Assembly (NCBI RefSeq): GCF_055900595.2
Contig: NZ_CM148325.1
Strand: one strand, 5' to 3'
DNA: 64,000 nucleotides
Below are positions 13,117 through 42,509 of this stretch, piece by piece. The notes under the pieces were generated by a model. That model searched no databases, was not told the origin of the DNA, and saw nothing but the letters and a program-made list of their open reading frames with translations. Numbering within the stretch: position 1 is the stretch's first letter; the number at the start of each line of letters is the position of its first letter. The position numbers and the translations under genes were made by a program.

Positions 13117-13943
13117 ATGTTAAAGAATTGACTCAATTTGCACGGGATATACGTATCCAGACGCTTAAATCATTAACTCATCTCGGCTTCGGTCATTATG
13201 GTGGCAGCATGTCGGTTGTGGAAACGCTGGCAGTGCTTTATGGCGCTGTAATGAAAATTGATCCTGCTGCTCCCGACTGGCCTGAGCGTGACTATTTTAT
13301 CCTGTCCAAAGGACATGCCGGACCTGCTCTCTACAGTACTCTGGCGCTGAAAGGCTACTTTCCACTGGAAGAATTAAGCACCTTAAATCAGAACGGAACC
13401 CGCTTACCAAGTCATCCGGATCGGCTAAAAACGTGTGGTGTTGATAGCACCACAGGATCGCTGGGGCAGGGGATATCCATTGCCGGAGGGATGGCGCTGT
13501 CGCATAAACTGGCGGGGCGCAAGAATCGGGTTTTTTGTATTGTCGGCGATGGCGAACTTAATGAAGGCCAATGTTGGGAAGCTTTCCAGTTTATCGCGCA
13601 TCATCGTTTGAATAACCTCACTGTGTTTGTGGACTGGAACAAACAGCAGCTTGATGGTCAACTGGATGAAATTATTAATCCATTTGATTTGGAAGGAAAA
13701 TTCCGGGCTTTCGGTTTTGATGTCGTGACAGTGAAGGGCGATGATATTGAGGGCTTGTTGAATGTAGTTAAACCTGTCCTGCCAGCTGAGGCCAGACCGA
13801 GAGTGGTCATTCTCGATAGCATTAAAGGGCAGGGGGTGCCGTGTCTCGAGCAACTCAGTAATTCTCATCACTTACGCCTCACAGAAGAGATGAAGGGGAC
13901 GCTAAACGAAACAATTCGCCAACTGGAGGCTATGCATGATTAA
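13113..13943 (+). CDS. Transketolase, N-terminal (TPP-binding) subunit
   Basis: Split-transketolase N-half (HYGGSMS, GHAGPALY, IVGDGELNEGQ); start overlaps the EIIC stop. Confidence 0.85.
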   Translation: MNVKELTQFARDIRIQTLKSLTHLGFGHYGGSMSVVETLAVLYGAVMKIDPAAPDWPERDYFILSKGHAGPALYSTLALKGYFPLEELSTLNQNGTRLPSHPDRLKTCGVDSTTGSLGQGISIAGGMALSHKLAGRKNRVFCIVGDGELNEGQCWEAFQFIAHHRLNNLTVFVDWNKQQLDGQLDEIINPFDLEGKFRAFGFDVVTVKGDDIEGLLNVVKPVLPAEARPRVVILDSIKGQGVPCLEQLSNSHHLRLTEEMKGTLNETIRQLEAMHD

Positions 13944-34104: not shown

Positions 34105-35248
34105 GTGACTCTGTTCATAGTTATCGTCGGCGCCGGATACAGCATCTACCCTGCTCAGGGCAGACGCTATGGCTTGTATTTTCCGTCCGCCACTGGTACT
34201 GCCGTAACCCGGCTTGTTCACGTAAAATTTTTGCCGGGTCGCTTGCCCCCTTCGCCGGTTCACTCCCAGCATTCTTCACAGGTGTTACAAAATTTACAAC
34301 ATCAACTGGGATTAATAGCCGGAGGTGAGGCCGGGAAACAGGCAGCAACGGCAGTGGGGCTCCGTTGCAGTGCTGATACTCTTCTTCGCAGGGTTATTAA
34401 TACCCCGGAGACGAAACAGTCGGGCGCGCCTCATGTCGGTATTGATGAGTGGGCGTGGCATCGGGGCCACCATTACGGCACGTTAATCGTCAATCTTGAT
34501 ACTCACCGTCCCCTCGTCCTGCTTCCCGGTTGCGATCAGAGTACGCTGGCGACCTGGTTCAGAAAATATCCGGAAATACAGGTTGTCTCACGTGACCGTG
34601 GCGGAGTCTATGCGACAGCAGCACGTGAAGGTGCACCTCAGGCCAGACAGATAGCTGATCGATGGCACCTGCTAAAAAATATTGGCGATGCGCCTGAACG
34701 AATGATGTACAGACAGATGCCTCTGATACGTCTTGTTGCCAGTGGGTTGTCACCAAAGAAATCACCTAAGCCAGTACTGTCTGTGCCTGTAGCATCGCTC
34801 CGTCGTCCGGAACGCCTTAAACAGCAAACCCGCCAAAAACGGCATCAGCGTTGGACAGAGGTTATGGCACTACATAACAAGGGATGTGGGTTCAGGGGAA
34901 ATATCCCGTATTACAGGCTTATCCCGTATTACAGGCTTATCACGTGTGACAGTCAGTCTCTGGGTGTGTTCAGGAACATTCCCTGAAATGTCAACCCGGC
35001 CTCCAGAGCGAGGACTTCTGGACCCATGGAGGGAGTGGTTAAAAGAGCAACGAGAAAGTGGTAACTTCGGCGCGTGGCTGCAAGGATGGCAGCTGATGCT
35101 GCGGCTATATGTGAGGCAATCAGCAGTCGCTGGAATAATGGGGGGTGTCGAAAGTCATGTAAATTGGCTAAAAATGCTGAAAGGCCAGATGTATGGTCGA
35201 GCCGGATTTGAACTACTCAGGCAGAGGGTCATGAGTCCACTGGCATGA
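34105..35248 (+). pseudogene. ISL3-family-like transposase remnant (frameshifted, lacks N-terminus)
   Basis: GIDEWAWHRGHHYGTLIVNLD...VSRDRGGVYATAAREGAPQARQIADRWHLLKNI fits the ISL3 DDE pattern; reading frame breaks near 34900; IS1 end abuts at 33981. Confidence 0.4.
34903..34938 (+). repeat. Perfect 18-bp tandem duplication (atcccgtattacaggctt x2) inside the ISL3-like remnant
   Basis: Read directly; encodes the duplicated ISRITGLSRITGLSR. Confidence 0.8.
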
Positions 35249-35271
35249 AAATCTCCATCCAGGTTGCGGAA

Positions 35272-35297
35272 GAGCCACTTTTCATCCGTCGTTGACA
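35272..35297. repeat. Solo IS21-type terminal inverted-repeat copy (gagccacttttcatccgtcgttgaca)
   Basis: 22 of 26 nt identical to the IS21 right end at 33549..33574; no adjacent ist genes. Confidence 0.5.
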
Positions 35298-36083
35298 GCT
35301 TGGGGGGTAGTGCATCTGTACCTCTAGGTCAAAGGAGGTATTCATATCCATATTAACGACTTGAATATGTTGACAGTACTGATTCAGATTAACGAAAAAC
35401 GACCGAGCTTCTCTACTACGCACCTCACCTATCCAGAGGATTGATGAGTATCCGCATCGGCTACGACGGTGCGTAACGATGAGCTTTGAACAGGGCAAAC
35501 TCTTTCATGACCCGGCCTTGGCAGTACATCAATCAGACCCTGTGACCTCTATTTGCAACTGACGTTTGTCGATAGTATTGATGATATGCTAGTGCAGGGT
35601 AAGAAATTACGAAATATGTTTAATCGGCAAGATTTTGAGTAACGCCTCAACATGCTCAATGAGTCATGTGGTCTGATGAGCATAAGGCTTTAGCCAGCTG
35701 ATATAATCCCGAACTATGCCGTAGTTAGGGCAAAGAATGCGGTAGACGGGTAGGCGTAACTGAACTGGAAATACCAGTATTGTTCATTACGATAAGGTGC
35801 GAAGTGAAGCATCGTGAACGGCTTTAGCCTGTTTGCCACAAGAGTAATGACCGTTTTCAATCGGTTTTAGGTGGATGATGAGGGGGATTTTACTCAGTAG
35901 GGACGACGTCAAAGCCTATCCAGAGATAAATGGAAAAGATAGTATTCGAAATTGAGAACGGTTGGGGTTGGTTATCGTTCTGTTTTAGCAACTAAACAAT
36001 AACTCCCCAACCGTTATCATTTCCAGCCCACGATAATCTGCAATGAACATTAAAAATTCACGGCGGCGGTCGCTTTCCTTAAT

Positions 36084-37046
36084 TTACGTCTCCTCTTGGG
36101 AGTGGATAATATGGGTGCCTGTTTCGCCACGCAGTGCCGCGGACAGGCATTCAGGCGTGGTGATAATCACTCTTTTACCTCCACGTTCCAGGAACTCCAG
36201 ACTGGCAAGAATCTTCGGTAACATACTCCCAGGCGGGAAGTGACCCTCCTGCATGTAACGGGCCATCGTTAGGACATCCACTGTATCCAGTGCATGCTGG
36301 TTGGGTTTCCCAAAATGAATACTCACTTTTTCCACGCCGGTGGTGATCACCAGAATGTCGGCGTGAATTTCGCGAGCCAGTAGCGCGCTAGAGAGATCTT
36401 TGTCGATAACCGCGTCCACGCTTTGGTAATCCCCTGCGTCAGTACGCACCACCGGAATGCCACCGCCGCCCGCGCCAATCACCACAAAGCCTTGCTGGAT
36501 CAGAGTCTTAATGGCAGGTGCTTCGACAATACGTTTCGGTTCCGGCGAGGCGACCACGCGGCGATAGCCCCGTCCGGCATCTTCAACAAAACGCCAGTCA
36601 GGGTTTGCCTTTTGTAGTTCATCACGCTGGTTTTCACTAAAGAATGCACCGATGGGCTTGGTGGGATGGACAAACCCCGGATCGTTTTTATCCACTTCCA
36701 CCTGAGTCACCACGGTGACGGCTTTTTTCTCGCCGTGAGGCGCCAGCCGGTTGTTCAGCGCCTGCTGGATCAGATAGCCAATGCCGCCTTGCGTATCCGC
36801 CACACAGTTCGCCAGCGGCGTTAAGGGTAGCCCTTCGCGCTCGTGGGCTATCTCCGCGCGGCGTAAATCCAGACCGACCTGCGGCCCGTTGCCGTGGGTC
36901 AGCACAATGTCGTAATCGGAAGCCAGCATTTCCAGAACCGTATCGGCGACGGCCTTCACCGCCTCCGCCTGATGCTCAATCGACTGGCTGGCGTTATCTT
37001 TGATAATGCTGTTGCCACCAATGGCAACGACCACAAGTTCTTTCAT
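36084..37046 (-). CDS. Carbamate kinase-like protein (ArcC/YahI/YqeA family)
   Basis: MKELVVVAIGGNSI...THGNGPQVG amino-acid kinase fold. Confidence 0.85.
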   Translation of the reverse strand: MKELVVVAIGGNSIIKDNASQSIEHQAEAVKAVADTVLEMLASDYDIVLTHGNGPQVGLDLRRAEIAHEREGLPLTPLANCVADTQGGIGYLIQQALNNRLAPHGEKKAVTVVTQVEVDKNDPGFVHPTKPIGAFFSENQRDELQKANPDWRFVEDAGRGYRRVVASPEPKRIVEAPAIKTLIQQGFVVIGAGGGGIPVVRTDAGDYQSVDAVIDKDLSSALLAREIHADILVITTGVEKVSIHFGKPNQHALDTVDVLTMARYMQEGHFPPGSMLPKILASLEFLERGGKRVIITTPECLSAALRGETGTHIIHSQEET

Positions 37047-37072
37047 AGAATTATCTTCCGTTTGCAGGCTAT

Positions 37073-38623
37073 TCAGGTCGTTTTAGTCTCTTCCTGCTCA
37101 GACGCAGCCACTGTTTCACGGCTATCAATAACATGCTTGAGGGCAAACATAGCAAGCATCATCAGGTAGGCCACAACAAACACAATCGAGCTGCCTTCCG
37201 CAAAGCCAACCGCTGGGGAGTGAATCACGCCAAACAGCGATAACAGTGCTCCAAAGGATGCAGCTATCGCCCCGCGCAGCGGCTTATTCATAATGGCAAA
37301 GATAGCAATGCATCCCCACAGCATGCTGGCCAGCGGTGCACCGCTTCCCAGATGCATCAGTCCATCGTAATAGACGCCTTTGCTGTGCAACAGGTCGCTA
37401 CCAAGTTTCTCAGCGGATGTTCCGGCTGCGCCCATCACGCTGTTAACGATGGTCAATGCCCAGTTGGCGACCCATGGGAACAGACAGATGAAAATGACGG
37501 GAACCTCGACTTTAGGAGTTTCTCGCACCACCTGATTGGCGGTTACCACACCGATAAAAACCAGAATTGGCACTATAGCAGTCATGGGAATAATGGCGAG
37601 CATAAACGCGCCCAACCCAAACAATGGCACCAGAAACATAGTGATGCCTGATGCGAGGGTATAGCAGATACTAGCGCCCATAGCTTTCCAGCCTGCATGC
37701 CCAACATATACGGTTACCGGGAACGGATTACCCAGCATGCAACCGAGCATGGAGGCAAAGCCGTTCGCCATCATGACCTTACGGGTGTTGTATTCATCAC
37801 CAGCCGCGTGCGCACTTTCAATGTTCTCGAGGTCAAAAATGTAGTTAGCCAGGCCCAAAGGAACTGCAGAAGCCAGATATGGCAGAGCGTGCGGCAAACC
37901 TTGCAGGAAGCTCCTTACATGAATTTCCGGCGGGTTGAAGCCGAAGGAAGACATCGACGCTTTAATGTCTTCCGGGCTTTGTAAACCGGATATCCACGCT
38001 AGGGACGTACCAGCAATCAGCAACAGCAAACCGGTAGGAATATGGGGAAAAATCGGCTTCTTACCGAACCAGTTAATGAAGATCAATAACAGGACGATGA
38101 AAGAAACTGTCGGCGCTTCGAACGCTTGCAGCATCGGGTTCATTGCCAGCAGTAATAACCCCAGTCCGGACAGACAAGAAAGCAGCACTGTACGCGGGAT
38201 CATCTTGCGGATAGTCTCACCCAGGAAGGAGCCACCGACCAGGATCAACGCTTCGACAAAGCACCACACCAATCCTATCTGAATAGCAAAGTTGGCATCT
38301 TTGGTTTGCTGATAAACCGGCATCAGCACCAGGAATGTCACGGTAAAGATTGAGGGTGCGCTCGGTCCAGACGGCAGCGCCGTTACATCGCTACGACCGG
38401 TTTTCTTCACCATCTGTAGACCAAACCAGGAGTAGCAGACACTGGCCGCCAGCACTGCAAGACCAAAGGCAGGCGCAATGCGTCCATAGACAATTTCAGT
38501 AGGGATTCCGACGACAAAAATTAGCAGACCCATCATTGTCAGCAGGTTAGTCAGATTGTTGGTCATCAGTCCAAAGTAAGCCGCCCAGTCACCACGTTTC
38601 CATTCTAGTTTTATGCTGTTCAT
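37073..38623 (-). CDS. Polytopic membrane transporter, possibly an NCS2/AzgA-like nucleobase-type permease
   Basis: 516 aa with about 12 predicted TM segments between the DUF1116 and carbamate kinase genes; family call is tentative. Confidence 0.6.
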   Translation of the reverse strand: MNSIKLEWKRGDWAAYFGLMTNNLTNLLTMMGLLIFVVGIPTEIVYGRIAPAFGLAVLAASVCYSWFGLQMVKKTGRSDVTALPSGPSAPSIFTVTFLVLMPVYQQTKDANFAIQIGLVWCFVEALILVGGSFLGETIRKMIPRTVLLSCLSGLGLLLLAMNPMLQAFEAPTVSFIVLLLIFINWFGKKPIFPHIPTGLLLLIAGTSLAWISGLQSPEDIKASMSSFGFNPPEIHVRSFLQGLPHALPYLASAVPLGLANYIFDLENIESAHAAGDEYNTRKVMMANGFASMLGCMLGNPFPVTVYVGHAGWKAMGASICYTLASGITMFLVPLFGLGAFMLAIIPMTAIVPILVFIGVVTANQVVRETPKVEVPVIFICLFPWVANWALTIVNSVMGAAGTSAEKLGSDLLHSKGVYYDGLMHLGSGAPLASMLWGCIAIFAIMNKPLRGAIAASFGALLSLFGVIHSPAVGFAEGSSIVFVVAYLMMLAMFALKHVIDSRETVAASEQEETKTT

Positions 38624-38735
38624 GGAATCTCCTTAACAGGTTAAGCATCGTTTGCGATCATGGAGATCGCCCAGCCCTGAAGGTAAACAACGTTTTCCGC
38701 TACTGTGGGGCTAACTGCGTTAGCCCCGGTTATTG

Positions 38736-40154
38736 TTATTGGCAGTAGTGGTCACGCCAGTTGAGGATCGCCTTTTCAAAACAAGTGAACGGCGGGTGAA
38801 CAATTCCTGCGCCGATCATGCCGATCCCTGCGTCTTTGTGCGCAATGGCTGTGTTAATTACCGGCAGAATGCCTGTACTGCCTACACGCGTAATATCGAT
38901 AGCGGTCGGTACGCCCATAAAACCAAGCAGGGGAATGGTGACGTTGGGGTTTTCTCCGAGAGTGATTTCTCTCATTTTACGTGAGAAATCAATAGCTTCC
39001 TCAACTGTTCCGCCCACCAGTGACACAATAGCTGGTGCCGTCGCCATAGCGAAACCGCCAACGCCGTAGGTTTCGGTAATTGCACTATCACCGATATCAC
39101 GTCCGGAATCCTCTAGCTTATAGCCCGCAAACATCGGCCCAATCACCTGCTGCGCCGGACCGGTAAACCACTTGCCCGGCAAACCGCTAATACGAAGACC
39201 GAACTCAACACCATTGCGTGCCATCGTTGTCACCACGGTGCTGTATTCAATGCCGTGCGCAGCGTCCATTGCGGCTTTACACATTGCCATCCATGTTGGT
39301 CCTGAGAAGTAATCACTACTGAGGACAAACTCGAACACCTCACGCTGCTGCTCAACAGGGTAGCCAGTCTGAATAATCCACGGCGTCAGCGTCTGAATCA
39401 GCAGCGCCGTCCCGGCGTTGTTGCGGTTATGGCACTCATCGCCCATATGCAGCGCCTGCGCTAACATCAAGTGCAGATCGATTTCGCCCGCCAGCTTCAT
39501 AGCATCGCGCAACATAGGTCCCAGTACATCTCGCATCCAGTTAAGACGCTCTATAACGCTCTGGTCGTTAGCGCCCATACGCAGGATCTTTGCCATCTGC
39601 TCGCTCATATTGGTATATGCGCGGTTTCCATAGGTTTTGTTCTCGACGATGTGCATAAACATCGATGCAGACGTGACACCCGCCATTGAGCCGACACAGT
39701 CATGTTCGTGGCACGGAGAGAAGATGATTTCACCTGAAGCAGCTAGTTCGGCGGCATCATCCAGATCTTTCGCCAGTCCTTCAAATACCAGAGCCCCGGT
39801 TACTGCGCCCTTCATTGCGCCGCACATTTTTTCCCAGTGGATTGGCGGCCCGGCGTGAAGGATAGTGTTACGGGTCATACCCGGCACGACGTTGATCGCC
39901 TGATCATAGCCAATTAGCACAGGATGCGACTGGATAATGCGTTCCAGCGCCAGCTGATTAGCAGCTGCAATTTTGTCTGCCAGTGGTGAAGCGGCAATGT
40001 CGTCCAGTGCCGTTACCACTTGTATGTTTCCTTGGCCTGGCGGTGTCCAGTCAAGTTGGGTTACCGGTACATTCTGCTTTTTCATGTCATCGCTGAACAT
40101 TTCGATACCGACATTAATAACGTTCAGCGGCTGATTAAACAGTGTCTGGCTCAT
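38736..40154 (-). CDS. DUF1116-family protein (YlbE/YahG-like)
   Basis: 472 aa; start overlaps the FdrA-like stop (ATGA), indicating an operon. Confidence 0.65.
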   Translation of the reverse strand: MSQTLFNQPLNVINVGIEMFSDDMKKQNVPVTQLDWTPPGQGNIQVVTALDDIAASPLADKIAAANQLALERIIQSHPVLIGYDQAINVVPGMTRNTILHAGPPIHWEKMCGAMKGAVTGALVFEGLAKDLDDAAELAASGEIIFSPCHEHDCVGSMAGVTSASMFMHIVENKTYGNRAYTNMSEQMAKILRMGANDQSVIERLNWMRDVLGPMLRDAMKLAGEIDLHLMLAQALHMGDECHNRNNAGTALLIQTLTPWIIQTGYPVEQQREVFEFVLSSDYFSGPTWMAMCKAAMDAAHGIEYSTVVTTMARNGVEFGLRISGLPGKWFTGPAQQVIGPMFAGYKLEDSGRDIGDSAITETYGVGGFAMATAPAIVSLVGGTVEEAIDFSRKMREITLGENPNVTIPLLGFMGVPTAIDITRVGSTGILPVINTAIAHKDAGIGMIGAGIVHPPFTCFEKAILNWRDHYCQ

Positions 40155-41701
40155 CAGCCTTCCTCCCCTTTAAATATAAATTCACGTGCCAGTAATCCGG
40201 TGTTGGTGCTACTGCTTGCCCAAATAACCCCGGCATCGGTCAACATCTGACACTGTTTTTTCAGCGACGGTGTATCAAGGTCGGTTCCCAGCACATAGCC
40301 GAGGATCTCAAGCGGGCGACCGTCTGCGGCAGCAATTTCTTTGGCTTCAACAATTGTATCCAGCATCACTCCAACCGGATCTTCATGTGATCCAAATCCA
40401 AGAATGAAGTCCATCACGATCACGCCAACTTCAGGATCCTGTGCTTCCTGCAAGAGCCGGGTAATGCGATTGGTGGGATCGATCATCGGATGTGGTTTGC
40501 CGTTGGTAAAATAATCATCGCCGAAATCGAGGAAGGTATGCGCCACGCTACGGTTGAGATCTGTAAGGCGGAACGCCGGATTCGGGTGAATATTGCTATA
40601 CACATCCGAGAGTTTTTCCATGGCAGTAAACATCGCTTCATCGCATAACGTGCCACCACAGAACAGGCCACGGATATACTTTTGTTGTGGAGTCAGACGG
40701 GAGCGAACCTCTTCAATCAGCTGCCAGTTGAGCGGATGCAAATCCAGACTCTCTTTTTTCACACCAGTCAACAGTACCGCTTTCAAGGCAGCCTCTTTAG
40801 TACCGCGGGCAAACTGTAGGCCTTCTTCATCCGCAGGGGTGGACTCACGTCCGAGGAAACACACCACCACAGGCTTGTGACAGGTGCGCGCACGTTCCAG
40901 CACCTTACGGGCTACCGCTGGTGCAGGAGGTTTGGATATAAGCGTAATGATCTCAGTTTGTGGATCGGCCTCCAGCATGCTAATCGCGTCAAGCATCATC
41001 AGGCCGCCAATTTTTTCACTCATATCGCGTCCACCTGTCCCAATCAGCTGGGAAATCCCGCCGCCAAATTCGTGAATGCGTACGCTCAGCTCCTGGCTAC
41101 CCGTACCGGAGGCACCAATGATTCCGATGTTGCCGCGACGCACTGCATTGCCAAAACACAACGCTGCGCCGTTAATGATGGCGGTTCCACAATCAGGCCC
41201 CATCATCAACAACCCTTTTTCATGTGCCAGATGCTTGAGTTCCAGCTCGTCCTCAAGAGAGACGTTGTCAGAAAACAGCATAACATTGAGGTTATTTTGT
41301 AGTGCCTGACGAGCTTCACGAGCAGCAAACAGGCCATTGACAGAGATCACCGCCAGATTACTCTCTGGAGCATGCTTCTTCGCACTGGCAATCGTGGCAT
41401 AGCGTGCTTCGTGCTGGCCTCCCTGTTCTTTATGCGCAAACAGCTCATCAATCGCTATTAGCGTCCGCTCGTTCGCCTCCTCGCTGGTACCTTTAATGAC
41501 AATCATCAGATCGCCACTTTTCGCCTCTTCCAGCTCAGGGGTCAGCAGACCGAGATTCTTCAGCACCCCCTTATTCATCTCTGTCGCCATAGCAACAAAT
41601 GCCTGCTCAACTCCATCAAGCTTATTTGCGCGCGTGGAGATAGACATCAGTGAAACAGAATCAAAATACGTGTTTTTTTTTACAACTATCCTGATTGACA
41701 T
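40154..41701 (-). CDS. FdrA-family protein (CoA-ligase/succinyl-CoA-synthetase-like fold)
   Basis: 515 aa; GIIGASGTG nucleotide-binding loop. Confidence 0.75.
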   Translation of the reverse strand: MSIRIVVKKNTYFDSVSLMSISTRANKLDGVEQAFVAMATEMNKGVLKNLGLLTPELEEAKSGDLMIVIKGTSEEANERTLIAIDELFAHKEQGGQHEARYATIASAKKHAPESNLAVISVNGLFAAREARQALQNNLNVMLFSDNVSLEDELELKHLAHEKGLLMMGPDCGTAIINGAALCFGNAVRRGNIGIIGASGTGSQELSVRIHEFGGGISQLIGTGGRDMSEKIGGLMMLDAISMLEADPQTEIITLISKPPAPAVARKVLERARTCHKPVVVCFLGRESTPADEEGLQFARGTKEAALKAVLLTGVKKESLDLHPLNWQLIEEVRSRLTPQQKYIRGLFCGGTLCDEAMFTAMEKLSDVYSNIHPNPAFRLTDLNRSVAHTFLDFGDDYFTNGKPHPMIDPTNRITRLLQEAQDPEVGVIVMDFILGFGSHEDPVGVMLDTIVEAKEIAAADGRPLEILGYVLGTDLDTPSLKKQCQMLTDAGVIWASSSTNTGLLAREFIFKGEEG

Positions 41702-42509
41702 AATTACCTCCGGACCTGTGGCTCAGGGCGCAGGCATCCGCCATGCCATACAGCATGTCGCATCCAGAACTTGAGCCTATATTTTTTATGTCAGTAACAT
41801 ATTGCGTAGAAATGGGTTGTGGCTCAGTAATAAATTGGTTCAGTAGCCGTCCGACTCTTTCCCGATAACGCTGATTAAATGCTTCCTCTAAAGTTATTTT
41901 GCTGAGAAGCGTTATGTTATTTCCTGCAAGTTGTAATGCTGCTAAGAAATCGTATCTATACTTCCTTAGTGGATGTCCTTGAATAAATAAAATAGTGCTT
42001 AAACCTACTAAATAATCATCCGATGATGGCGTCAGCCCTATTCCAAGACCAATTAACTGGTTGACTGCCGCAGTGATGTTTTCTCCTGTACACAACGCCT
42101 TCAGCAAATTTTTTCGGCGGTTGAGTAATTGGCGAGAAATTTCCTGATAAAATGGATTGTCACCCTGGTACAGAAATAATGTGTCGTTGCTTCTTAGTTG
42201 TTGGCGGATAAACTCTTCCCAATGCTGCCAGCCGACTTTGGCAAGGCTTGCTGAATCAGATGTCCACCGTGGTATTCGCCACATCTGACAACCGGTTATT
42301 TCTATCCATTTATCATTTCCAACAGTTATTCCAGACCCGCTAAAATTGACCTGTTCACCGGGGTGAAAAAGGTCTTCATAATGTGTCAGTGCTAAACGAC
42401 AACTGTTAGGTGCGTTATCACAATCCTCACTCAGTAACGTCAGCAGTCGCTGCTGTTCAGGTATTAACAGATTTACCGCATGGGAAAAAACCTGTTCAAC
42501 CTGGCCCAT
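41661..42509 (-). CDS. DUF2877-family protein (YlbF/YahE-like)
   Basis: 282-aa ORF upstream of and overlapping the FdrA-like gene. Confidence 0.55.
   Translation of the reverse strand: MGQVEQVFSHAVNLLIPEQQRLLTLLSEDCDNAPNSCRLALTHYEDLFHPGEQVNFSGSGITVGNDKWIEITGCQMWRIPRWTSDSASLAKVGWQHWEEFIRQQLRSNDTLFLYQGDNPFYQEISRQLLNRRKNLLKALCTGENITAAVNQLIGLGIGLTPSSDDYLVGLSTILFIQGHPLRKYRYDFLAALQLAGNNITLLSKITLEEAFNQRYRERVGRLLNQFITEPQPISTQYVTDIKNIGSSSGCDMLYGMADACALSHRSGGNYVNQDSCKKKHVF

What the first reader, a model, noticed from the sequence alone, without database searches (positions are those of the whole stretch)
34903..34938. Perfect 18-bp tandem duplication inside a transposase relic
atcccgtattacaggctt occurs twice in tandem, followed by a partial third unit (atcacgt...), duplicating six codons (ISRITG LSRITG). 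A fresh, perfect tandem duplication marks recent slipped-strand mutation and could be a strain-typing marker.
Basis: seen in the sequence. Interest (0 to 1): 0.2.

Follow-up and report, generated by a model that had tools for sequence, protein, structure and literature searches.

The report
Variable 18-bp repeat in dead transposase
The perfect 18-bp tandem duplication is real and lies in a long-dead ISL3 (ISEc38-like) transposase gene on E. coli ColV-type virulence DNA, but it is an ordinary, neutral slippage repeat seen with 1, 2 or 3 copies in other genomes, not a fresh strain-specific event.

Summary
ATCCCGTATTACAGGCTT occurs at 34903-34920 and again at 34921-34938, followed by ATCACGT.

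The host gene is an ISEc38-like ISL3-family transposase pseudogene (33983-35297). An IS1 cuts off its 5' end, and it carries four 1-nt frameshifts and a 349-nt deletion.

Intact ISEc38 and about 2,900 sister relics have one unit, so the duplication is derived. All the inactivating lesions are shared by 1-, 2- and 3-copy alleles. The gene was therefore dead before the repeat expanded, and the six extra codons (ISRITG, in an HTH-like motif) have no protein consequence.

The 2-copy allele is not fresh. It is identical in about 102 complete E. coli records (mostly ColV plasmids from poultry, humans, dog, pig and panda) and in one Klebsiella plasmid.

The locus is nevertheless polymorphic: about 74 records have 1 copy, about 102 have 2, 5 have 3 and none has 4. 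Copy number disagrees with the flanking SNP haplotypes, so it changes recurrently.

The best mechanism is replication slippage, seeded by a TATC...TATC microhomology 18 bp apart and then acting on the perfect repeats. It is a weak, homoplastic typing marker, and it is not the MLVA locus CVN002. Interest is low.

The parts
34903..34920 (+). Repeat unit 1, ATCCCGTATTACAGGCTT
34921..34938 (+). Repeat unit 2, identical to unit 1. This is the derived extra copy; which of the two is 'new' cannot be told.
   Evidence: Absent from intact ISEc38 and from 1-copy alleles.
34939..34945 (+). ATCACGT, the ancestral 3' flank that mimics the start of a unit. TATCACGT matches TATCCCGT at 7 of 8 positions. It is the microhomology partner, not a decayed third copy.
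   Evidence: Present directly after the single unit in 1-copy alleles.
33983..35297 (+). ISEc38-like ISL3-family transposase relic (pseudogene plus right end). It is 93.6% identical to the intact ISEc38 CDS over aligned parts. The stop codon of the old frame is at 35246-35248.
   Evidence: Pfam DDE_Tnp_ISL3, E=3.8e-17. RefSeq annotation 'ISL3 family transposase, frameshifted' in p1ColV5155. Pairwise alignment.
34895..34898 (+). G4 run where ISEc38 has G3. This +1 frameshift lies 4 nt upstream of the repeat and splits the reading frame between ORF 34105-34986 and ORF 34886-35248.
   Evidence: Shared by 1-, 2- and 3-copy alleles.
35062..35063 (+). Junction of a 349-nt internal deletion relative to ISEc38 CDS nt 1087-1435.
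   Evidence: Shared by all alleles of this relic lineage.
34083..34084 (+). Site of a 1-nt deletion (frameshift) relative to ISEc38.
34264..34264 (+). 1-nt insertion (frameshift) relative to ISEc38.
35140..35140 (+). 1-nt insertion (frameshift) relative to ISEc38.
33574..33982 (-). Right part of an IS1 that abuts and truncates the relic. The first 25 nt of the transposase CDS, its promoter and its left inverted repeat are missing.
   Evidence: InsA ORF 33652-33927, annotation, alignments.
30287..33573 (+). IS100 (istA/istB) inserted into that IS1. The IS100 is itself interrupted near its left end by an IS2 (about 30311-31640).
   Evidence: Boundaries are approximate to a few nt.
29922..30286 (-). 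Left part of the same IS1.

Best explanation
This is a small variable-number tandem repeat (18-bp unit; 1, 2 or 3 copies in the population, 2 here). It arose by replication slippage inside an already inactivated ISEc38-like ISL3 transposase gene.

Proposed steps:
1. An ISEc38-like element decayed. It acquired frameshifts, a 349-nt deletion, and later a 5' truncation by IS1.
2. Three substitutions in this relic lineage changed the flank after the future unit from CCTGTCGCGT to CTTATCACGT. This created a TATC...TATC direct microhomology 18 bp apart (TATCCCGT / TATCACGT).
3. A rare slippage between these short repeats duplicated the intervening 18 bp.
4. Once two perfect units existed, slippage became much easier in both directions. 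It produced 3-copy alleles and probably contractions back to 1 copy, repeatedly and in different backgrounds.

The array has no function. It lies in dead coding sequence, no ORF of 30 aa or more overlaps it on the other strand, and it forms no notable structure. The array and the relic hitch-hike on the ColV-plasmid / aerobactin-island accessory DNA of E. coli.

What is shown: the duplication, its derived state, the polymorphism at orthologous loci, the gene's death before expansion, and the homoplasy. What is inferred: slippage as the molecular mechanism, the role of the TATC microhomology, and neutrality.
For: Duplication and coordinates.

Ancestral single copy: intact ISEc38 (539 aa...FREISRITGLSRVTVSRWV...) and the common chromosomal relic each have one unit.

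Synthetic 1-, 2-, 3- and 4-copy queries against 20,395 complete E. coli records gave 81, 109, 12 and 7 records at >=99% identity. The 7 found with the 4-copy query are short partial hits, because the best full-length hit to it is only 94.3%. Subtracting them gives about 74 records with 1 copy, about 102 with 2, 5 with 3 and 0 with 4 (independently gives 102).

The same locus (IS1 - relic - transposase fragment - carbamate kinase) occurs with:
- 1 copy: pMTY1886_IncF, pAPEC3701 and the AR_0085 chromosome;
- 2 copies: the window, p1ColV5155, and the 104 and MDR_56 chromosomes;
- 3 copies: the 135, GF43, TUM9803 and Br_112 chromosomes.
Copy numbers were verified by regular expression.

The paralogous iucA-shiF-relic context has 1 copy (DG341, SMS-3-5) and 3 copies (GF60).

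All inactivating lesions are shared by 1-, 2- and 3-copy alleles.

Homoplasy: among the IS100-bearing loci, both alleles of the SNP at 35165 occur with both 1 and 2 copies. The window and pMTY1886 are identical over 1.7 kb except for copy number. AR_0085 (1 copy) and Br_112 (3 copies) share one SNP haplotype.

Control: a synthetic 2-copy version of the abundant sister relic finds no full-length match above 94.3% among about 3,200 records. Those sister copies, which lack the TATC...TATC repeat, never expanded.

No hairpin: DNA fold z-score 0.17. No minus-strand ORF of 30 aa or more overlaps the array.

From established knowledge: short tandem and direct repeats in E. coli expand and contract mainly by RecA-independent replication slippage or misalignment.
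Against: The mechanism is inferred from sequence patterns only. Unequal recombination or gene conversion between the paralogous relic copies (some chromosomes carry 2-6 copies) could also move or change alleles. It could also explain part of the apparent homoplasy.

The microhomology argument rests on a single lineage (n=1), and the difference from ISEc38 is modest: 4 versus 2 contiguous matching bases, 8/10 versus 7/10 overall.

Whether the 1-copy alleles in IS100-bearing plasmids are ancestral or contractions is not resolved.

Neutrality is assumed, not measured.

Record counts are not independent samples. Many records are clonally related plasmids, and a few assemblies are duplicated in the collection.
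Confidence: 0.85

Rival explanations
1. A fresh, strain-specific slipped-strand duplication that marks this particular isolate.
For: The two units are perfectly identical, and copy number does vary among relatives.
Against: The same 2-copy allele, with flanks 99.9-100% identical, is in about 102 complete E. coli records from many hosts and countries and in 64 PLSDB plasmids at >=99% identity (this count includes a few short partial hits), one of which is labelled Klebsiella pneumoniae. It is inherited with the ColV-type segment and did not arise newly here.
Confidence: 0.05
2. Copy-number differences arise mainly by homologous recombination or gene conversion between paralogous relic copies, or between plasmids and chromosomal islands, rather than by repeated replication slippage.
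For: The relic exists in at least two contexts: iucA-shiF-relic, and IS1-relic-carbamate kinase. Many chromosomes hold 2-6 places. The 5' 400 nt of the two contexts differ strongly while the rest is near-identical, a mosaic that itself implies past recombination. The four-gamete pattern is also what recombination produces.
Against: Recombination can shuffle alleles but cannot create the 2- and 3-copy states, so at least two expansion events are still required. Loci identical in all flanking SNPs differ only in copy number, which is simplest as local slippage.
Confidence: 0.1
3. Assembly or sequencing artefact in the window.
For: Short tandem repeats can be mis-assembled, and reads were not available.
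Against: An 18-bp x 2 array (36 bp) is far shorter than any read length. The identical array occurs in about 102 independent complete assemblies made in different laboratories, and discrete 1- and 3-copy alleles exist.
Confidence: 0.01
4. A functional in-frame repeat. In this reading, ORF 34886-35248 (GTG start, 120 aa: MGSGEISRITGLSRITGLSRVTV...) is an expressed small HTH protein salvaged from the relic, and its DNA-binding helix is lengthened or shortened by the repeat in a contingency-like switch.
For: The ORF exists and contains the HTH-like motif (sub-threshold HTH_17, HTH_38 and HTH_Tnp_ISL3 matches at residues 302-338 of intact ISEc38). The unit length is a multiple of 3.
Against: No Pfam family matches the 120-aa ORF. 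The part after the 349-nt deletion (which is not a multiple of 3) is out of frame with the ancestral protein until a later +1. The chromosomal alleles carry a further +G at 35146 that changes its C-terminus. Inserting six residues in the middle of a helix-turn-helix would be expected to disrupt the fold. RefSeq annotates the whole as a pseudogene. There is no evidence of a promoter or of selection.
Confidence: 0.02

Closest known systems
Bacterial VNTR / minisatellite loci of the kind used in MLVA typing (e.g. the E. coli CVN loci of Lindstedt et al., cited in PMC3407997 and PMC8143711)
   Same: Head-to-tail repeats of a short unit (18 bp, the same unit length as CVN002). Whole-unit copy-number polymorphism at an orthologous locus. 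The presumed slippage mechanism. Homoplasy.
   Different: It is not one of the published loci: the CVN002 primers are absent from the window even with 3 mismatches. It has only 1-3 copies, whereas CVN002 alleles up to 18 are reported in PMC3407997. It lies on accessory, mobile DNA inside a pseudogene and is absent from most E. coli.
ISEc38 (ISL3 family insertion sequence of E. coli)
   Same: The host sequence is 93.6% identical to the ISEc38 transposase CDS over 1,245 aligned nt. It has the same DDE_Tnp_ISL3 domain and the same right end.
   Different: The window copy is a relic. The 5' end is cut off by IS1, there are four 1-nt frameshifts and a 349-nt deletion, and it carries the 18-bp duplication. 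It cannot encode the 539-aa transposase.
Microhomology-mediated tandem duplications/deletions by replication slippage in E. coli (classical lacI-type hotspots; own knowledge)
   Same: The duplicated segment is bounded by a short direct repeat (TATC...TATC, extended TATCCCGT/TATCACGT) present in the ancestral single-copy sequence. The product is an exact head-to-tail duplication.
   Different: No experimental rate data exist for this site. The inference comes from comparative sequence only.
Contingency loci (phase-variable genes with intragenic repeats)
   Same: Repeat-number changes occur inside a coding-like sequence.
   Different: The unit is a multiple of 3, so it does not switch the frame. 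The gene is already dead, and no phenotype is plausible.

Membership tests
VNTR (variable-number tandem repeat) locus | Two or more head-to-tail copies of a unit | tested here: met
   Two perfect 18-bp units at 34903-34938; TRF score 81, 2.4 copies.
VNTR (variable-number tandem repeat) locus | Copy number differs by whole units among orthologous loci | tested here: met
   1, 2 and 3 copies occur in the same IS1-relic-carbamate kinase context. Counts are about 74, 102 and 5 records, with no 4-copy allele.
VNTR (variable-number tandem repeat) locus | Recurrent change (mutation rate above that of flanking point substitutions) | tested here: inconclusive
   Copy number is incompatible with the flanking SNP at 35165, and identical SNP haplotypes carry different copy numbers. 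Recombination is an alternative explanation, and no rate was measured.
ISL3 family insertion sequence (ISEc38) | DDE_Tnp_ISL3 transposase domain | tested here: met
   PF01610, E=3.8e-17, on ORF 34105-34986. The intact homologue scores E=2.3e-36 and also matches Zn_ribbon_ISL3.
ISL3 family insertion sequence (ISEc38) | Uninterrupted transposase ORF and both terminal inverted repeats (a functional element) | tested here: not met
   The 5' end, including CDS nt 1-25, is removed by IS1. There are four 1-nt frameshifts and a 349-nt deletion. RefSeq annotates homologous copies as 'frameshifted' pseudogenes.
E. coli MLVA locus CVN002 (18-bp unit) | Flanked by the published CVN002 primer sites | tested here: not met
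   Neither primer (sequences from PMC8143711) matches the window with up to 3 mismatches.
Contingency / phase-variable locus | The repeat lies in a functional ORF or promoter, and repeat changes switch expression | tested here: not met
   The host gene is a multiply disrupted pseudogene. The unit length of 18 preserves the frame. No minus-strand ORF of 30 aa or more overlaps the array.

The most novel reading that the evidence does not exclude
The 18-bp array could be an unusually unstable minisatellite that flips between 1, 2 and 3 copies on short, possibly epidemiological, time scales within ColV plasmids and aerobactin islands. It would then be a usable fast clock or marker for tracking these virulence plasmids. 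A still less likely reading is that the 120-aa ORF 34886-35248 is an expressed HTH protein whose helix length is tuned by the repeat.
Probability: 0.05. Interest if true: 0.3.

Novelty: new member of a known kind. Interest (0 to 1): 0.1.

Why it matters
It matters little. The repeat is a neutral scar in a dead insertion-sequence gene.

Its practical value is modest:
- It is a three-state marker (1, 2 or 3 units) that travels with the IS1-ISL3 relic-carbamate kinase segment of ColV-type plasmids and related chromosomal islands. It could help sort sub-lineages of these virulence elements or flag plasmid-to-chromosome transfers. Because it is homoplastic, it should only be used together with SNPs.
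- It is a clean natural example of the two-step behaviour of tandem repeats. First comes a rare microhomology-seeded duplication, which never occurred in about 2,900 sister copies lacking the TATC repeat. Frequent expansion and contraction follow once two perfect units exist.

Tried and rejected
1. Known MLVA locus CVN002 (which also has an 18-bp unit): rejected. The primers are absent from the window.

2. Hairpin or secondary-structure-driven instability: rejected. The DNA fold of 34890-34955 gives -4 kcal/mol, z = 0.17.

3. Alleles with 4 or more copies: none found in complete E. coli genomes.

4. Duplication in the sister ISEc38-type copies: none found.

5. A second copy of the unit or of the relic elsewhere in the window: none found.

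6. Pfam on the 120-aa ORF that contains the repeat: no family matched. The HTH assignment rests only on sub-threshold matches in the intact homologue.

7. Literature on ISEc38: there are 28 full-text hits. I read only the 8 listed titles and abstract openings, which are genome-survey papers and do not mention a repeat polymorphism.

8. I first assumed the window was collinear with p1ColV5155. It is collinear only from 31639 to about 46120. Its left flank instead matches the chromosomal YadA-sigma-IS256'-IS1 context.

9. Not attempted: read-level confirmation (no reads available), a full phylogeny of all ~180 loci (only 16 loci were fetched), and protein-database or structure searches (not warranted for a pseudogene).

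Full report
**Observation.** The window reads ...GGGGAAAT ATCCCGTATTACAGGCTT ATCCCGTATTACAGGCTT ATCACGTGTGACAGTC... The two perfect 18-bp units lie at 34903-34920 and 34921-34938. Tandem Repeats Finder reports 34902-34945, period 18, 2.4 copies and no indels. The unit occurs nowhere else in the window even with three mismatches, and shuffled sequence never gives two matches. By arithmetic, a perfect 18-bp tandem duplication is expected about 1e-6 times in 64 kb.

**What the host sequence is.**
- ORF 34105-34986 matches Pfam DDE_Tnp_ISL3 (E=3.8e-17).
- Megablast against complete E. coli genomes finds the 1.4-kb stretch at 99.9% identity in many 180-215-kb plasmids, where RefSeq annotates it 'ISL3 family transposase, frameshifted'.
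- The closest intact element is ISEc38, whose transposase has 539 aa.
- A pairwise alignment with the ISEc38 CDS shows what the window copy (33983-35297) has lost or gained:
  - it lacks CDS nt 1-25, because an IS1 abuts it at 33982/33983;
  - it has a 1-nt deletion after 34083;
  - it has 1-nt insertions at 34264 and 35140;
  - it has an extra G in the run 34895-34898, 4 nt upstream of the repeat;
  - it has the 18-bp duplication;
  - it has a 349-nt deletion at 35062/35063.
- Aligned parts are 93.6% identical. This is a long-dead relic.
- In intact ISEc38 the region reads ...HNKECSFREISRITGLSRVTVSRWVRSGTFPE... Several Pfam HTH families converge there below their thresholds (HTH_17 E=2.6e-4, HTH_38 and HTH_Tnp_ISL3; residues about 302-338), between the two stretches of the DDE domain.
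That frame, however, is already broken.

**Surroundings.**
- The window is E. coli ColV-type virulence DNA. From 31639 to about 46120 it is collinear (99.7-99.8%) with plasmid p1ColV5155, in the order IS100, IS1 remnant, relic, transposase fragment, carbamate kinase family gene, 516-aa permease-like gene, DUF1116 and fdrA.
- An autotransporter ORF (21616-25731) lies upstream. The best plasmid matches over that stretch annotate tsh/hbp.
- To the left of the relic the window has a nested IS pile: IS1 left part (29922-30286), the first ~24 bp of IS100, an IS2 (about 30311-31640), the rest of IS100 (to 33573), and the IS1 right part (33574-33982).
- This pile is preceded by the region homologous to the sigma-like HTH gene and IS256 fragment of the chromosomal loci (window 29009-30286 aligns to MDR_56; annotated there) and by a YadA-like gene (28064-28981). 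That left flank is the one seen in chromosomal copies of the locus.

**Ancestral state and polymorphism.**
- An alignment of the window with a near-identical chromosomal relic, intact ISEc38 and the common chromosomal sister relic shows one unit in all three. The sequence TATCACGT (TGTCGCGT in ISEc38) follows the single unit directly. The 'partial third unit' is thus the ancestral flank.
- I queried the 20,395 complete E. coli records with synthetic 1-, 2-, 3- and 4-copy versions of the 281-nt region. Records at >=99% identity numbered 81, 109, 12 and 7.
- The 4-copy query has no full-length match better than 94.3%, so its 7 records are short partial hits common to all four searches. Subtracting them gives about 74 records with one copy, about 102 with two, 5 with three and none with four. 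independently gives 102 at >=99% over 1.4 kb.
- In PLSDB, 64 plasmids carry the 2-copy form at >=99% identity (this count includes a few short partial hits), including one labelled Klebsiella pneumoniae.

**Same locus or paralogues?** I fetched 15 loci.
- The IS1-relic-(transposase fragment)-carbamate kinase context occurs with:
  - one copy in plasmids pMTY1886_IncF and pAPEC3701 and in the AR_0085 chromosome;
  - two copies in the window, p1ColV5155 and the chromosomes of strains 104 and MDR_56;
  - three copies in the chromosomes of strains 135, GF43, TUM9803 and Br_112.
- A second, paralogous context (iucA-shiF-relic-integrase fragment-IS256) has one copy in DG341 and SMS-3-5 and three in GF60.
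- Copy numbers were verified by pattern matching.
- The two contexts differ strongly in the first ~400 nt of the relic but are near-identical from there on. They share the extra G, the 349-nt deletion and the later +1.
- Every inactivating lesion near the repeat is therefore older than the expansions. The duplication happened in an already dead gene.

**Recurrent change.** Across 1.7 kb around the array:
- The four IS100-bearing loci share two markers (35090 C; no extra G at 35146) that set them apart from the chromosomal loci without IS100.
- Within that group, the window (2 copies) is identical to pMTY1886 (1 copy).
- p1ColV5155 (2 copies) shares 35165 C with pAPEC3701 (1 copy). All four SNP-by-copy-number combinations therefore exist.
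- Among chromosomal loci, AR_0085 (1 copy) and Br_112 (3 copies) share one SNP haplotype, and MDR_56 (2 copies) differs from it by one SNP. AR_0085 and MDR_56 also share an IS421 insertion in the neighbouring YadA gene.

Copy number thus changes faster than flanking substitutions accumulate, or is reshuffled by recombination.

**Mechanism.**
- The single-copy sequence of this lineage is [TATC]CCGTATTACAGGCT[TATC]ACGT, a 4-bp perfect (7 of 8) direct repeat spaced 18 bp apart.
- Misalignment of the nascent strand between the two TATC motifs gives exactly the observed product.
- In ISEc38 and the abundant sister relics the second motif is TGTCGCG(T/A). A synthetic 2-copy version of the abundant sister relic finds no full-length match above 94.3% among about 3,200 records. 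The first duplication is therefore rare and seems confined to the lineage with the better microhomology. This is suggestive only, since it rests on one lineage.
- Once two perfect units exist, slippage over 18-22 bp of identity is expected to be frequent in both directions (established knowledge of RecA-independent repeat instability in E. coli). That fits the 3-copy alleles and the homoplasy.
- The region has no special secondary structure (z = 0.17), and no ORF of 30 aa or more overlaps it on the minus strand.

**Comparison with known things.**
- It behaves like an ordinary bacterial VNTR.
- It is not the 18-bp MLVA locus CVN002. The published primers (PMC8143711) are absent from the window, and CVN002 reaches far higher copy numbers (PMC3407997).
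- It is not a contingency locus, because the gene is dead and the unit preserves the frame.
- The host is a degenerate member of the ISL3 family closest to ISEc38. It fails the test for a functional element.

**Verdict.**
- 'Fresh/recent' is wrong. The 2-copy allele is an inherited feature of a widespread ColV-type segment.
- The locus is a poor, homoplastic, three-state marker on accessory DNA.
- It is a previously undescribed but entirely ordinary example of a known kind. Interest is about 0.1.

Noticed in passing
window 29922-33982: A nested insertion-sequence pile: an IS1 is split by an IS100, and the IS100 is itself interrupted about 24 bp from its left end by an IS2. ColV plasmids such as p1ColV5155 share the IS100-in-IS1 insertion at the same position but lack the IS2.
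   Followed up: partly
window 28064-30286, compared with L001 and L012-L014: The window's left flank (YadA-like adhesin, then the region that aligns to the sigma-like HTH gene and IS256 fragment annotated in the chromosomal loci, then IS1) matches the chromosomal version of the locus. In p1ColV5155 the same IS1 abuts a truncated serine acetyltransferase gene next to RepFIIA. The window therefore combines the 'chromosomal' left flank with the 'plasmid' IS100 insertion, an intermediate arrangement.
   Followed up: partly
L016 (p1ColV5155) 13400-13678 and 30625-30945: The serine acetyltransferase gene is split into a 3' fragment and a 5' fragment, each next to an IS1, about 17 kb apart. The IS1-bounded segment between them carries the ISL3 relic and the carbamate kinase/fdrA cluster. 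This suggests an IS1 composite-transposon insertion, or an inversion, that brought this segment into the plasmid. Target-site duplications were not checked.
   Followed up: no
L002 and L011 (first ~400 nt of the relic) versus window 33983-34380: The aerobactin-context copy of the relic (iucA-shiF-relic) is highly divergent from the window copy in its first ~400 nt, with a 17-nt deletion, but nearly identical afterwards. It shares the same frameshifts and the 349-nt deletion. This mosaic implies an old recombination between two different ISL3 elements or relics.
   Followed up: partly
window 36084-42509 and L016 2525-6454: ColV plasmids carry two paralogous fdrA - DUF1116 - carbamate kinase clusters (a putative carbamate/ureide-type catabolic module). 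In p1ColV5155 the fdrA of the copy next to the relic is annotated as frameshifted, whereas the window has an uninterrupted 515-aa ORF at 40154-41701.
   Followed up: no
window 35305-35512 (approx.): Directly after the relic's right end, RefSeq homologues annotate another short transposase fragment on the opposite strand ('frameshifted; missing N- and C-terminus'). In strain 104 an IS2 is inserted at this point (window 35307-35311).
   Followed up: no
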